The notes under the pieces: model-generated
Database searches by the model: none
The model's input: only the letters and a program-made list of their open reading frames with translations
What the model was told of the DNA's origin: nothing
Translations under genes and position numbers: made by a program
Part shown: piece by piece, positions 18,636 to 20,349 of the stretch
Position numbering within the stretch: position 1 is the first letter of the stretch
Layout: each line of letters opens with the position of its first letter
Source of the DNA: a virus
Taxonomy: Duplodnaviria; Heunggongvirae; Uroviricota; Caudoviricetes
Direction: 5' to 3' (one strand)
IMG/VR virus record: IMGVR_UViG_2563366887_000003
DNA length: 22,398 bases

Positions 18636-19424
18636 ATGAGCGAGAAATTAAAGATAGTCTATCGCCCATTACAAGAATTGTCACCGTATGCGCACAACGC
18701 CAGGACGCACAGTACTGAGCAGGTGGCACAACTGGTAGAAAGTATTAAGCAATTCGGCTGGACTAATCCGGTGCTGATTGACGAAAAGGGCGAAATTATT
18801 GCGGGTCACGGTCGTGTTATGGCGGCTGAAATGCTCAAAATGGATTCTGTTCCGGTCATTGTTCTGTCTGGCCTGACGGATGAGCAGAAAAAGGCGTACC
18901 GCCTGGCAGATAATCGCCTGCCGATGAATGCTGGCTGGGATGAAGATCTGTTGCGGATGGAGCTGTCGGACCTAATCAATGCTGATTTTGATGTCTCCCT
19001 GACAGGCTTCATCCCGGCAGAAATTGATGAACTGTTGACGGATGTTTTGCCCGGTACAGGAAATGAGGAGGAGCCGTATACGACGAAAATTGATACGCCT
19101 GTTTATGAGCCGTCAGGCGGTAAACCGGATATCAGTGAACTGTACGACGATACGAAAACTCAGGAGCTGATCAGCCGGATACGTTCGGCGTCCCTTGATC
19201 CTGATATTGAGAAATTCCTCCTGTGTGCAGCAGAACGTCACACGGTGTTTAATTTCAGCAGAATTGCGGACTATTACGCTCATGCCCCCGCTGAAATTCA
19301 GTGCCTTTTCGAGGAGTCGGCGCTGGTGATCATTGATTATCAGCAGGCTATTGAAAATGGATTTGTCCGAATGACGCAGCGCATGGTGGAGATCATGCAT
19401 GGCGGGGAGGAGGAATATGCGTGA
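18636..19424 (+). CDS. ParB-like N-terminal nuclease-domain protein (262 aa)
   Basis: N-terminus ...LVESIKQFGWTNPVLIDEKGEIIAGHGRVMAAEMLKMDSVPVIV fits the ParB/Srx fold motif (GxxR). It may be the intact form of K-12 ynaK; I am not sure of that. Confidence 0.7.
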   Translation: MSEKLKIVYRPLQELSPYAHNARTHSTEQVAQLVESIKQFGWTNPVLIDEKGEIIAGHGRVMAAEMLKMDSVPVIVLSGLTDEQKKAYRLADNRLPMNAGWDEDLLRMELSDLINADFDVSLTGFIPAEIDELLTDVLPGTGNEEEPYTTKIDTPVYEPSGGKPDISELYDDTKTQELISRIRSASLDPDIEKFLLCAAERHTVFNFSRIADYYAHAPAEIQCLFEESALVIIDYQQAIENGFVRMTQRMVEIMHGGEEEYA

Positions 19425-20349
19425 TGATTTTTGCGCCTTTATTCTGACTCACGGGCGACCGGACAAAGTTCTGACTTACCGGACGTTGCGTCGTGCTGGC
19501 TATACCGGGAAAATTTTTATCGTTGTTGATGATGAAGATAAGACACGGCATCAGTACATGGCTGAATTTGGTGAACAGGTGCTGGTATTTTCCAAAGCCG
19601 ATATTGCTAGTCGTTTTGACGAAGCCGATAATTTTAGTGACCGCCGCTCAATTTTTTACGCCCGTAATGCCTGTTTCGACCAGGCAAAACTGGTCGGGTG
19701 TAAATACTTCATTCAGCTCGATGATGATTATCACGAGTTCCAGTTTCGGGTGGATCGCAACTATGACCAGGCCTATTTCCCGATAAGGAAACTGGATGAG
19801 ATCCTTTCTGAAATGCTTGCGTACTACGAATCAATACCTGCTCTTTCCATCGCTATGTCGCAGGGCGGGGATTTTCTTGGTGACAATGGCGGCCATGCTT
19901 CGTGGGTGAAACGCAAGGCAATGAACAGCTTTATCTGTTCGGTTGATCGACCGTTCTCATTCATGGGGCGCATTAACGAGGATGTGAATACGTACACGAA
20001 TCTCGGTCGCTGTGGTGAATTGTTTATGACGATCGGTGCTGTCCAGTTAGGGCAGAAACAGACGCAGAAAAACAGCGGCGGAATGACCGAGCTGTATCTG
20101 GATTCCGGAACCTACGTTAAAAGTTTTTACTCCGTCATGTATGCGCCGTCGTGCGTAAAAATCTCACTTATGGGTGCCAGTCATAAACGCATTCACCATC
20201 AGGTCACCTGGAACAACGCTGCAGTAAAAATCCTTCACGAAAAATACAGGAAGAAGACACCCTGCATATCAATGGGGGTGACAAATGATTCCGTATTCGA
20301 AAGTCGAGTCTCTGGCAGCGTGCCGGATGACTGCACAACAAATCGCTGA
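19417..20349 (+). CDS. Hypothetical protein (310 aa), translationally coupled to the ParB-like gene
   Basis: ATG at 19417 with GGAGGAGG 5 nt upstream, overlapping the last codons of the ParB-like gene (the track ORF starts 6 codons earlier at 19399). Contains acidic DD/DDD motifs. Function unknown. Confidence 0.6.
   Translation: MRDDFCAFILTHGRPDKVLTYRTLRRAGYTGKIFIVVDDEDKTRHQYMAEFGEQVLVFSKADIASRFDEADNFSDRRSIFYARNACFDQAKLVGCKYFIQLDDDYHEFQFRVDRNYDQAYFPIRKLDEILSEMLAYYESIPALSIAMSQGGDFLGDNGGHASWVKRKAMNSFICSVDRPFSFMGRINEDVNTYTNLGRCGELFMTIGAVQLGQKQTQKNSGGMTELYLDSGTYVKSFYSVMYAPSCVKISLMGASHKRIHHQVTWNNAAVKILHEKYRKKTPCISMGVTNDSVFESRVSGSVPDDCTTNR

What the first reader, a model, noticed from the sequence alone, without database searches (positions are those of the whole stretch)
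18636..20349. ParB-like nuclease-domain gene translationally coupled to an unknown 310-aa gene upstream of the packaging genes
The downstream start codon with a GGAGGAGG Shine-Dalgarno sits inside the last codons of the ParB-like gene. ParB-like proteins paired with a partner enzyme ahead of terminase genes are often DNA-modification or anti-restriction modules. The 310-aa partner has acidic DDxDD-like motifs and no family I can name. K-12 appears to carry only short remnants at this position.
Basis: partly seen in the sequence, partly recalled or inferred. Interest (0 to 1): 0.4.

Follow-up and report, generated by a model that had tools for sequence, protein, structure and literature searches.

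The report
ParB-tethered phage glycosyltransferase gene pair
The two overlapping genes encode a widespread phage enzyme pair: a sugar-transferring enzyme from a family known to decorate DNA, and a helper protein that always accompanies it; what it puts the sugar on is unknown, because the usual pre-modification enzyme is missing.

Summary
A 262-aa ParB-like gene (18636-19424) and a 310-aa gene (19417-20349) overlap by 8 nt (ATGCGTGA), with GGAGGAGG at 19406-19413.

The "unknown" partner has a family. It is a TET-associated glycosyltransferase (Pfam PF20691, E 3.7e-34; "GREB1-related" in RefSeq), with a GT-A fold and an intact R...DDD...ED motif.

The ParB-like protein is the full-length form of K-12 YnaK. 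It has a ParB/Srx NTP-binding N domain, a disordered linker carrying an invariant YTxKIxxPxYEP motif, and a helical C-terminal domain that has no Pfam family.

That C-terminal domain, not the ParB domain, is the constant partner. Every locus with enough upstream sequence has it, from E. coli, Lactobacillus, Nocardia and Vibrio phages to a haloarchaeal virus. It sometimes occurs alone and once fused to the enzyme. It co-varies with the enzyme (r 0.60, against 0.29 for the ParB domain).

The pair usually heads the terminase operon. No TET/JBP or hydroxymethylase accompanies it.

Best reading (about 0.5): a two-subunit DNA glycosyltransferase, with the ParB-like protein as tether or activator. 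The acceptor is unknown. I rate it a new variant of a known kind, of moderate interest.

The parts
18585..18618 (+). Terminator-like hairpin with a T-run after the trkG moron. It marks the upstream boundary of the pair. No promoter-like site lies between it and the ParB-like start codon.
18636..19424 (+). Gene for the 262-aa partner protein, the full-length form of YnaK. It has three parts: a ParB/Srx N domain, a linker and a C-terminal domain.
18636..19040 (+). ParB/Srx NTP-binding N domain with a short helical hairpin (aa 1-135). It carries N21-x-R23, S35, G57-H-G-R60 (nt 18804-18815) and D92-N93.
   Evidence: Pfam ParB_N scores 29.3 bits against a cut-off of 26.3. Foldseek matches Noc, ParB, KorB and PadC. 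The closest phage relatives are the N domains of ParB-methyltransferase fusions.
19041..19127 (+). Acidic linker predicted to be disordered (aa 136-164). It contains the family-invariant motif Y148-T-x-K-I-x-x-P155-x-Y157-E-P159 (nt 19077-19112).
   Evidence: pLDDT is below 50. The residues are invariant in A2, A4, A6 and A7.
19128..19370 (+). Helical C-terminal domain (aa 165-245) with invariant F194, L195, R201, H202, Y214, H216 and SALVIID234. No Pfam family covers it. This is the constant partner of the glycosyltransferase.
19406..19413 (+). Shine-Dalgarno sequence GGAGGAGG for the glycosyltransferase, lying inside the last codons of the partner gene.
19417..19424 (+). ATGCGTGA, the overlap of the glycosyltransferase start codon with the partner's stop codon. 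This is the translational coupling.
   Evidence: The overlap is conserved in homologous loci.
19417..20349 (+). Gene for the 310-aa TAGT-family GT-A glycosyltransferase. Key residues are R14 (19456-19458), DDD102-104 (19720-19728), NEDVN187-191 (19975-19989) and R258/H260/H261.
   Evidence: Pfam PF20691 E 3.7e-34. phrog_842 E 7.5e-104. The AF2 model is GT-A. Invariant residues come from A1 and A3.
20260..20346 (+). C-terminal tail specific to the E. coli lineage (aa 282-310). It is absent from homologues, which are about 285 aa long, is predicted to be disordered, and overlaps the next ORF.
20285..21199 (+). Downstream packaging genes: a small terS-like helix-turn-helix ORF (20285 or 20327 to 20536) and terS (from 20540). 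In this window terS is cut at about 21167-21199 and joined to sitB'/sitA.

Best explanation
The two genes encode the two subunits of one phage enzyme. The catalytic subunit is a soluble GT-A glycosyltransferase of the TAGT family, which should use a nucleotide-sugar donor through its R14, DDD102-104 and ED188-189 site. The accessory subunit contacts it through its conserved linker motif and helical C-terminal domain. Overlapping translation would keep the two in a fixed ratio. In the E. coli form, a flexible acidic linker ties the accessory domain to a ParB/Srx NTP-binding domain of the kind that phages otherwise fuse to DNA methyltransferases or use to activate thymine dioxygenases. I infer that this domain brings or activates the enzyme on double-stranded phage DNA late in infection, next to the packaging machinery. 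The enzyme would then add sugar to the DNA, making it a poorer substrate for host nucleases. No enzyme that makes 5-hydroxymethyl pyrimidines is encoded with it, so the acceptor group is unknown. What is shown: the family, the fold, the motifs, the constant pairing, the co-variation and the genomic context. What is inferred: physical complex formation, DNA as the target, the timing and the protective role.
For: The partner is a TAGT: Pfam 118.9 bits against a cut-off of 27.5. Its best structural matches are other phage TAGTs (TM 0.7-0.8), and the T-even-type beta-glucosyl-HMC-alpha-glucosyltransferase also matches. PDB matches are all GT-A enzymes. The R...DDD...ED motif described for phage GT-A DNA glycosyltransferases and JGT (bioRxiv 10.1101/2023.12.21.572611) is invariant.

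The pairing is constant. All 85 loci of the first set have the partner gene immediately upstream. In the second, more diverse set 85 of 87 have it, and the two exceptions are cut by a contig end. Three stand-alone C-terminal-domain proteins, picked without reference to the enzyme, all sit just upstream of a TAGT gene. One locus has a natural fusion (L116).

The C-terminal domain is conserved about as well as the enzyme (49% against 52% mean pairwise identity) and co-varies with it (r 0.60). The ParB N domain is less conserved (35%) and co-varies less (r 0.29; 0.005 among distant pairs).

Several lines link the module to DNA. The N domain is most similar to the N domains of ParB-DNA-methyltransferase fusions (phrog_498 E 6e-51; PADLOC MTase_II E 1.5e-38). 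A ParB-like protein with the same layout (NBD, unstructured linker, CTD, no DNA-binding domain) is required by phage thymine dioxygenases on dsDNA (PMC13229309). At least 53 of 73 dereplicated loci have terminase genes within 4 kb downstream. The rest lie among replisome genes: primase, DnaB, PolA, clamp, clamp loader, RecA and SSB. The enzyme is basic (median pI 8.7).

Some loci add a second TAGT paralogue, a radical SAM enzyme or a fused P-loop domain, as hypermodification clusters do. Both proteins are soluble and under purifying selection.
Against: No experiment bears on this pair, and I found no paper that characterises it.

The known acceptors of TAGT relatives, 5hmC, 5hmU or a sugar already on them, need a TET/JBP or a hydroxymethylase. 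None is present in the window, in any Pfam-labelled neighbourhood, or in the complete phi jlb1 annotation. Enzymatic glycosylation of unmodified DNA is not known.

One TAGT relative, GREB1, is reported to glycosylate a protein (PMC7968844).

The partner protein is acidic and has no recognisable DNA-binding domain. The enzyme is split or decayed in several L. delbrueckii phages, so it is dispensable. I could not co-fold the two proteins, so the complex is inferred from genomics only.
Confidence: 0.5

Rival explanations
1. The enzyme glycosylates a protein, not DNA. The target would be either the partner itself, at the invariant Tyr/Thr of the YTxKIxxPxYEP linker motif (glycogenin-like self-priming), or a packaging or virion protein made from the adjacent operon.
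For: GREB1, a TAGT relative, is reported to O-GlcNAcylate ER-alpha (PMC7968844). PDB fold matches include protein-modifying GT-A enzymes: ColGalT1, glycogenin and SunS. Y148 and Y157 are invariant, lie in a disordered segment, and always travel with the enzyme. The pair sits next to head and packaging genes. One relative lies in an operon with four GT2 genes after the capsid gene.
Against: The pair is 40-48% identical across phages of Gram-negative and Gram-positive bacteria, actinobacteria and haloarchaea, whose virion proteins differ. A sizeable minority of loci lie among replisome genes with no structural genes nearby. The ParB N domain's nearest relatives are fused to DNA methyltransferases. 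The fold matches to protein glycosyltransferases are generic GT-A similarity (TM 0.3-0.43).
Confidence: 0.2
2. The enzyme acts on a small molecule or on RNA, for example a nucleotide or an immune signalling molecule, as an anti-defence device. The ParB/Srx domain would bind the nucleotide.
For: ParB/Srx folds bind ATP, CTP or GTP and include small-molecule kinases (PMC12704722; the Foldseek list includes serine kinase and sulfiredoxin). The target must be universal, given the host range. In two loci a P-loop domain is fused to the enzyme.
Against: The ParB N domain is absent from up to about a quarter of modules (22 of 85 loci; several of these are cut by contig ends), so nucleotide binding by it cannot be the core function. 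Nothing found points to a small-molecule acceptor. PADLOC has no model that matches the enzyme. Characterised family members act on polymers.
Confidence: 0.12
3. The two genes are unrelated neighbours: a partition or packaging ParB, and a glycosyltransferase that alters the host cell surface (seroconversion or superinfection exclusion).
For: Public records annotate the first gene as 'chromosome (plasmid) partitioning protein'. Prophage-borne glycosyltransferases that modify O-antigen are common (background knowledge).
Against: There is no ParA, no helix-turn-helix domain and no parS-type architecture. The enzyme has no membrane segment, and no GtrA/GtrB-type partners are present. The same pair occurs in hosts with unrelated envelopes, including archaea. 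Constant adjacency, a fusion and co-variation show that the two work together.
Confidence: 0.03
4. In this particular strain the pair is a functionless remnant of a decaying prophage.
For: The window's prophage has lost its whole structural module. terS is cut at about 21167-21199 and joined to a truncated sitB, a junction shared by only 2 of 5426 genomes. K-12 has lost everything after aa 87 of YnaK.
Against: Both ORFs are intact and keep every invariant residue. The stretch is 100% identical to that in strain EC2, whose prophage still carries the downstream packaging, head and tail genes, although several are frameshifted or interrupted. This concerns current use in one strain, not what the module is.
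Confidence: 0.15

Closest known systems
TET/JBP-associated glycosyltransferases (Pfam PF20691 TAGT). The family includes the T2/T6 beta-glucosyl-HMC-alpha-glucosyltransferase and the GT-A enzymes of phage 5mC-to-5hmC hypermodification clusters. Base-J glucosyltransferase and the GREB1 GT domain are more distant relatives.
   Same: The sequence family is the same, as are the GT-A fold and the R...DDD...ED active-site motif. Like them it is phage-borne and soluble.
   Different: No TET/JBP, C5-methyltransferase or hydroxymethylase supplies an acceptor. The enzyme has a conserved C-terminal region (aa 223-281) outside the Pfam model. It has a constant partner protein, which the characterised members are not reported to need. 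It is only distantly related to the T-even enzyme: there was no tblastn hit at E 1e-5, and the structural match has TM about 0.55.
ParB-dependent phage thymine dioxygenases (5mYOX176/ParB176; O'Toole et al., PNAS 2026, PMC13229309)
   Same: A ParB homologue with an N-terminal NTP-binding domain, a short helical segment, an unstructured linker and a C-terminal domain, and no DNA-binding domain, is encoded next to a post-replicative DNA-modifying enzyme and is needed by it on dsDNA. Our protein has the same layout and keeps the N-x-R, S and GxxR residues.
   Different: The client enzyme is a glycosyltransferase, not a dioxygenase. Here the C-terminal domain can occur without the ParB domain. In that study, GTs tended to go with the ParB-independent dioxygenases.
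ParB_N-DNA methyltransferase fusion proteins of phages and prophages
   Same: These carry the closest relatives of the N domain (31-53% identity; phrog_498, PADLOC MTase_II).
   Different: There the enzyme is fused directly and is a methyltransferase. Here the ParB domain is tied to a separate enzyme through a dedicated adaptor domain.
T4 alpha- and beta-glucosyltransferases
   Same: They are phage enzymes that add sugar to DNA after replication. T4 alpha-GT is suggested to act in association with the replisome (PMC13216743), much as some of our loci sit among replisome genes.
   Different: They have a GT-B fold and belong to unrelated families (PF11440, PF09198). They act on 5hmC that was incorporated before replication and have no ParB-like partner.
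Chromosome and plasmid partition ParB (ParABS), Noc, KorB
   Same: The fold of the N-terminal CTP-binding domain is the same.
   Different: There is no ParA, no helix-turn-helix DNA-binding domain and no canonical dimerisation domain. The TIGR00180 score is 38 against a cut-off of 58. The protein is not a partition protein.

Membership tests
TAGT (Pfam PF20691) | Matches the family profile above the curated cut-off | tested here: met
   118.9 bits against a cut-off of 27.5, E 3.7e-34, residues 8-222. phrog_842 E 7.5e-104.
TAGT (Pfam PF20691) | GT-A fold with the R...DDD...ED(Y/F) active-site motif | tested here: met
   AF2 model with pTM 0.72. All top PDB matches are GT-A, and the best viral matches are TAGT proteins with TM 0.7-0.8. 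R14, D102-104 and D189 are invariant and E188 is nearly so. The third position is V, not Y/F.
TAGT (Pfam PF20691) | Encoded with an enzyme that makes the hydroxymethyl-pyrimidine acceptor (TET/JBP 5mYOX, or a dCMP/dUMP hydroxymethylase) | tested here: not met
   None is present in the window, in five Pfam-labelled neighbourhoods, in the complete phi jlb1 annotation, or among recurrent neighbour clusters of 80 dereplicated loci. This is a contextual feature, not a sequence feature.
TAGT (Pfam PF20691) | Transfers sugar to a modified base, or to a sugar on it, in DNA | not testable with these tools
   Needs biochemistry or nucleoside mass spectrometry.
ParB/Srx N-terminal domain (PF02195) | Profile match, fold and NTP-binding residues | tested here: met
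   29.3 bits against 26.3. Foldseek matches Noc, ParB, PadC and KorB at E 6e-7 to 1e-4. N21-x-R23, S35, GHGR60 and D92-N93 are present. Nucleotide binding itself was not tested.
Partition ParB (ParABS) | Helix-turn-helix parS-binding domain, a ParA partner, and a full-length ParB profile match | tested here: not met
   TIGR00180 scores 38.1 against 58.45. No HTH family matches. Residues 137-160 are disordered, and a domain unrelated to any Pfam family follows. No ParA is in the window.
ParB-activated DNA-modifying enzymes (5mYOX-ParB type) | A ParB homologue with NBD, unstructured linker and CTD, lacking a DNA-binding domain, encoded next to the client enzyme | tested here: met
   Domain layout, compared with the description in PMC13229309. 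Adjacency.
ParB-activated DNA-modifying enzymes (5mYOX-ParB type) | The client enzyme depends on the ParB protein for activity on dsDNA | not testable with these tools
   Only genomic evidence is available: constant pairing, a fusion and co-variation.
ParB-activated DNA-modifying enzymes (5mYOX-ParB type) | C-terminal domain homologous to that of the 5mYOX-associated ParBs | not tested
   The published sequences are not held.
Seroconversion (Gtr-type) prophage glycosyltransferases | A membrane-embedded enzyme with GtrA/GtrB partners | tested here: not met
   The maximum 19-residue hydropathy is 1.08, so there is no membrane segment. No such neighbours are present.

The most novel reading that the evidence does not exclude
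The pair is a self-sufficient system that glycosylates ordinary, unmodified DNA. The target would be a canonical base, the backbone or a DNA end, with no prior hydroxymethylation. The undescribed C-terminal domain would supply half of the acceptor site, and the ParB domain would give NTP-gated access to duplex DNA at the time of packaging. That would be a previously unseen DNA modification, carried by prophages in about one in six complete E. coli genomes and by viruses of both bacteria and archaea.
Probability: 0.2. Interest if true: 0.85.

Novelty: new variant of a known kind. Interest (0 to 1): 0.5.

Why it matters
TAGT-family enzymes are known as the last step of pathways that first make 5-hydroxymethyl pyrimidines. 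In a published survey, about two thirds of phage contigs that carry a DNA-type glycosyltransferase had no such first step nearby, and they were set aside as unexplained. This locus shows that one large, coherent part of that set is a defined two-gene module with its own constant partner domain. The partner domain forms 1385 clusters at 50% identity. The module is present in 867 of 5426 complete E. coli genomes.

The question can be tested directly in a tractable host. K-12 lacks the pair, so adding the two genes and analysing DNA, and the partner protein, by mass spectrometry would show what is glycosylated. If the target is DNA, the result would extend the newly found role of ParB-like proteins as helpers of DNA-modifying enzymes from dioxygenases to glycosyltransferases. 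It might also reveal a new acceptor. If the target is not DNA, the result would correct the 'DNA glycosyltransferase' label now spreading through phage annotation.

Tried and rejected
- **Source paper.** Iyer et al. 2013 (NAR 41:7635), which defined TAGT, is not held. I know its view on ParB only through citations.
- **Literature.** Searches for ynaK, TAGT, GREB1-related, ParB plus glycosyltransferase, and glycosylated canonical bases found nothing that characterises this pair. Two leads, PMC11780129 and PMC12373910, were irrelevant.
- **Solved structures.** A sequence search of the PDB with the enzyme profile gave only a spurious de novo TIM barrel.
- **Structure library.** The afdb50 fold library was unavailable, so the expected match to base-J glucosyltransferase could not be checked.
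- **Published ParB sequences.** Sequences of the 5mYOX-associated ParBs are not in the held text or supplements. Homology of the C-terminal domains is therefore untested.
- **C-terminal domain fold.** The Foldseek search with the partner model was dominated by the ParB N domain and gave no match for the C-terminal domain.
- **Defence models.** PADLOC has no model that matches the enzyme.
- **Vibrio phage pv27.** I read 40 kb of its annotation looking for a hydroxymethylase. None was there, but the remaining 150 kb was not read, so this says little.
- **P-loop extension.** The P-loop extension fused to the enzyme in L134 and L169 has no Pfam match and only weak PHROG matches.
- **Rejected readings.** I rejected a partition ParB, a Gtr-type surface glycosyltransferase, and chance adjacency, for the reasons given under rival explanations.
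Full report
**Setting.** The window is a Rac-type lambdoid prophage of E. coli. It runs from recE/recT through the immunity region, a Q-like antiterminator and the lysis genes to the trkG moron (17023-18498). The two genes of the finding follow, then a terS-like ORF and terS. In this strain terS is cut at about 21167-21199 and joined to a truncated sitB and sitA. Only 2 of 5426 complete genomes share that junction, so the prophage here is defective. The 2.1-kb stretch carrying the pair is 100% identical in strain EC2, where terminase, portal, head and tail genes follow it (several frameshifted or interrupted).

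**Check of the observation.** It is confirmed.
- ORF 18636-19424 encodes 262 aa.
- GGAGGAGG lies at 19406-19413.
- ATG 19417 opens a 310-aa ORF ending at 20349.
- Start and stop overlap as ATGCGTGA.
- Homologues all start at the residue encoded at 19417, not at the upstream ATG 19399.
- A terminator-like hairpin closes trkG at 18585-18608, and no promoter-like site lies before the ParB-like start. I infer from this that the pair is read as part of the late transcript.
- K-12-type strains match only the first 390 bases of the query, and there ynaK is an 87-aa stub followed by ydaY.
- Against the one relative where dS was not saturated (L046), dN/dS is 0.07 for the enzyme and 0.12 for the ParB-like gene. 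Both are real genes under constraint.

**The 310-aa protein.** It also matches PHROG 842, labelled beta-glucosyl-HMC-alpha-glucosyltransferase (E 7.5e-104). RefSeq calls it "GREB1-related protein".
- An AlphaFold2 model (pLDDT 72, pTM 0.72) has a GT-A fold. All top PDB matches are GT-A enzymes: ColGalT1, GnT-I, glycogenin and SpsA (E about 1e-4, TM 0.3-0.43).
- The best matches among predicted viral structures are other TAGT proteins (TM 0.7-0.8). A T4-like phage's beta-glucosyl-HMC-alpha-glucosyltransferase also matches.
- No close relative has a solved structure.
- R14, DDD102-104 and D189 are invariant and E188 nearly so across the family. They correspond to the R...DDD...EDY/F motif reported for phage GT-A DNA glycosyltransferases and base-J glucosyltransferase (bioRxiv 10.1101/2023.12.21.572611).
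- The protein has no membrane segment.
- Homologues are about 285 aa long. The last 29 residues are a disordered tail specific to the E. coli lineage and overlap the next ORF.

**The 262-aa protein.** It has three parts (model pLDDT 79).
- *Residues 1-135* form a ParB/Srx NTP-binding fold with a short helical hairpin. Pfam ParB_N passes its cut-off. Foldseek matches Noc, ParB, PadC and KorB. N21-x-R23, S35, GHGR60 and D92-N93 stand where the nucleotide-contacting residues of ParB proteins lie (compared with the residue list).
- *Residues 137-160* are predicted to be disordered and acidic. They nevertheless hold a motif, YTxKIxxPxYEP, in which Y148 and Y157 are invariant across four alignments (P155 in three).
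- *Residues 165-245* form a confident helical domain with invariant F194, L195, R201, H202, Y214, H216 and a SALVIID segment.

No Pfam family covers the linker or the C-terminal domain. The protein is not a partition ParB. It has no helix-turn-helix domain, there is no ParA, and it fails the full-length ParB profile (38 against 58 bits).

**The constant partner is the C-terminal domain.** This was the main surprise.
- In Vibrio phage pv27 the gene upstream of the enzyme encodes only the linker motif and the C-terminal domain (140 aa).
- A search with the C-terminal part alone returned many stand-alone proteins of 130-140 aa. I looked up three of them, chosen without reference to the enzyme. 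Each sits just upstream of a TAGT gene; two overlap its start.
- A profile of the domain finds 1385 cluster representatives at E 1e-3 or better in 1.84 billion proteins. The domain always lies at the C terminus, in proteins of either about 130-170 aa or about 240-310 aa.
- Of the best 150, Pfam recognises ParB_N in 30 and the related GmrSD_N in 2, and nothing over the C-terminal domain.

**Synteny.**
- tblastn finds the enzyme at 40-48% identity in phages of Lactobacillus, Nocardia and Vibrio and in haloarchaeal virus HHTV-2.
- In phi jlb1 and HHTV-2 the annotated partner and enzyme genes overlap by 11 nt.
- In 85 of 85 loci of a first set, the partner gene lies immediately upstream on the same strand.
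- In a second, more diverse set, 85 of 87 loci have it, and the two exceptions are cut by a contig end. Of the 85, 63 carry the ParB N domain and 22 have the C-terminal domain only, although some of these are truncated by contig ends.

The variants are informative:
- a single ORF that fuses ParB, C-terminal domain and enzyme (L116);
- a second TAGT paralogue between the two genes (L105, L126, L155);
- a radical SAM enzyme between them (L164);
- a Walker-A P-loop extension fused to the enzyme (L134, L169);
- the partner placed after the enzyme (L098, L099).

Across 58 dereplicated loci that have all three domains, mean pairwise identity is 52% for the enzyme, 49% for the C-terminal domain and 35% for the ParB domain. 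Identity matrices correlate at r 0.60 for enzyme against C-terminal domain, and 0.29 for enzyme against ParB domain. Among distant pairs the values are 0.33 and 0.005. The C-terminal domain therefore evolves with the enzyme, while the ParB domain is a more freely exchanged add-on.

**Genomic context.**
- After dereplication to 80 groups, the only gene families that recur near the pair are packaging genes: three TerL types, two TerS types, portals and a Mu-F-like head protein.
- At least 53 of 73 loci with enough downstream sequence have a terminase gene within 4 kb on the same strand. Several of the remainder have terminase-sized singleton genes there.
- The other loci, mostly the form with the C-terminal domain only in larger phages, lie among replisome and recombination genes: primase, DnaB, PolA, sliding clamp, clamp loader, RecA, RecU and SSB.
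- No TET/JBP, thymidylate-synthase-type hydroxymethylase or other constant third gene appears anywhere I could check. That covers the window, the Pfam-labelled neighbourhoods and the complete 38-kb phi jlb1 genome as annotated.
- DNA methyltransferases are occasional neighbours.

**How it most likely works.** Constant adjacency, overlapping translation, one natural fusion and co-variation argue that the two products form one enzyme. The poorly predicted but highly conserved enzyme segments (155-170 and 190-232) and the partner's conserved but unstructured motif fit mutual folding on contact. That is inference.

Four lines point to DNA as the target:
1. The characterised relatives of the enzyme family act on DNA.
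2. The ParB N domain is most similar to those fused to phage DNA methyltransferases (phrog_498 E 6e-51; PADLOC MTase_II E 1.5e-38; many methylase-annotated hits).
3. A ParB homologue with the same domain layout was recently shown to be required by phage thymine dioxygenases, specifically on double-stranded DNA (PMC13229309). The idea that ParB proteins direct modification enzymes during packaging goes back to Iyer et al. 2013, as cited in PMC8256090.
4. Both genomic contexts, packaging and replication, are DNA transactions. In addition, the enzyme is basic (median pI 8.7).

The accessory genes seen in some loci resemble the logic of hypermodification clusters. I therefore commit to a two-subunit DNA glycosyltransferase that acts late on phage DNA, probably to blunt host nucleases, at about 0.5 confidence.

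**What weighs against it.**
- The usual acceptor cannot be made, and glycosylation of unmodified DNA is not known.
- One family member, GREB1, is reported to glycosylate a protein (PMC7968844).
- The partner is acidic and lacks a DNA-binding domain.
- The invariant tyrosines in a disordered segment could themselves be acceptors.
- The enzyme is split or decayed in several Lactobacillus delbrueckii phages, so it is dispensable there.

For these reasons I keep a protein-target rival at about 0.2 and a small-molecule or RNA rival at about 0.12. The reading of two unrelated neighbours, a partition ParB and a surface glycosyltransferase, is contradicted by the data.

**Comparison with what is known.** The enzyme is a sequence and fold member of TAGT but fails the contextual feature that gave the family its name. 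The partner is a ParB/Srx-fold protein but not a partition ParB. It resembles the ParB activators of 5mYOX dioxygenases in layout and position, with a different client enzyme. I could not test homology of the C-terminal domains. A published survey noted that about 65% of phage contigs with a DNA-type glycosyltransferase lack a neighbouring 5mYOX or thymidylate-synthase homologue. It listed ParB-like proteins among the neighbours without further analysis. A large survey of the ParB-CTPase fold does not mention glycosyltransferases. I found no paper that characterises this pair.

**Verdict.** I rate this a new variant of a known kind. The genes are already annotated in hundreds of genomes. What is new is the constant, undescribed partner domain and the absence of any enzyme that makes the acceptor. 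Interest is moderate (0.5), and the question can be tested directly in E. coli K-12, which lacks the pair.

Noticed in passing
L001:20137-20925 (strain EC2, NZ_CP058571.1), equivalent to window 18636-19424: RefSeq annotates ynaK in EC2 as a 258-bp pseudogene 'missing C-terminus'. The DNA is 100% identical to the window and the 262-aa ORF is intact. The K-12 stub seems to have become the reference length, so the conserved C-terminal domain goes unannotated in many genomes.
   Followed up: partly
window 21053-22398: The prophage is cut inside terS at about 21167-21199 and joined to a truncated sitB and an intact sitA on the minus strand. Only two complete genomes, both chicken isolates (FORC_081 and CM2010-0578/1), share the junction.
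   Followed up: partly
window 8150-10258: Two adjacent prophage ORFs of 363 and 333 aa have only sub-threshold Pfam matches: HEPN/RES N-terminal domain 1 and a GNAT acetyltransferase. Neither matches a PADLOC model. They may be an accessory or defence pair. The second is frameshifted in strain EC2.
   Followed up: no
window 14504-14932 and 15083-15478: Two prophage ORFs carry a TolA C-terminal domain (E 2e-23 and 1e-14). They lie just upstream of the lysis genes.
   Followed up: no
window 20285-20536 and 20540-21199: An 83-aa ORF matches only the middle of a small-terminase PHROG (phrog_309, positions 145-218 of 319). A separate terS (phrog_51) follows directly. RefSeq starts the small ORF at 20327. 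The small terminase may be in two pieces, or the small ORF may be an extra helix-turn-helix protein.
   Followed up: no
L105:7186-7998, L126:3258-4091, L155:7135-7995: A second, divergent TAGT paralogue is inserted between the partner gene and the main enzyme (Pfam TAGT E 6e-22 and 2e-16 for the two scanned, L105 and L155; L126 judged from its sequence only). This suggests addition of two sugars in those phages.
   Followed up: partly
L164:936-1904; L134:7446-8000; L169:7446-7990: In L164 a radical SAM enzyme is inserted between the partner and the enzyme. In L134 and L169 a Walker-A P-loop domain of about 185 aa, with no Pfam family, is fused to the N terminus of the enzyme.
   Followed up: partly
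L116:7287-8855: A single ORF of more than 520 aa fuses the ParB N domain, the C-terminal domain and the glycosyltransferase. It would be a ready-made construct for testing the complex.
   Followed up: partly
Lactobacillus delbrueckii phages phiLdb, Ld17, LL-Ku and Ld25A (hits H49-H61): The enzyme gene is matched in two pieces or survives only as a short remnant. phiLdb has two separate TAGT-fragment proteins of 168 and 120 aa. The module is decaying in this phage group.
   Followed up: no
L086:6868-7614 and L090:9298-10020: A C5 DNA methyltransferase lies two genes upstream of one form that has the C-terminal domain only. An N6/N4 methyltransferase lies directly downstream of another. No dioxygenase accompanies either.
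   Followed up: no
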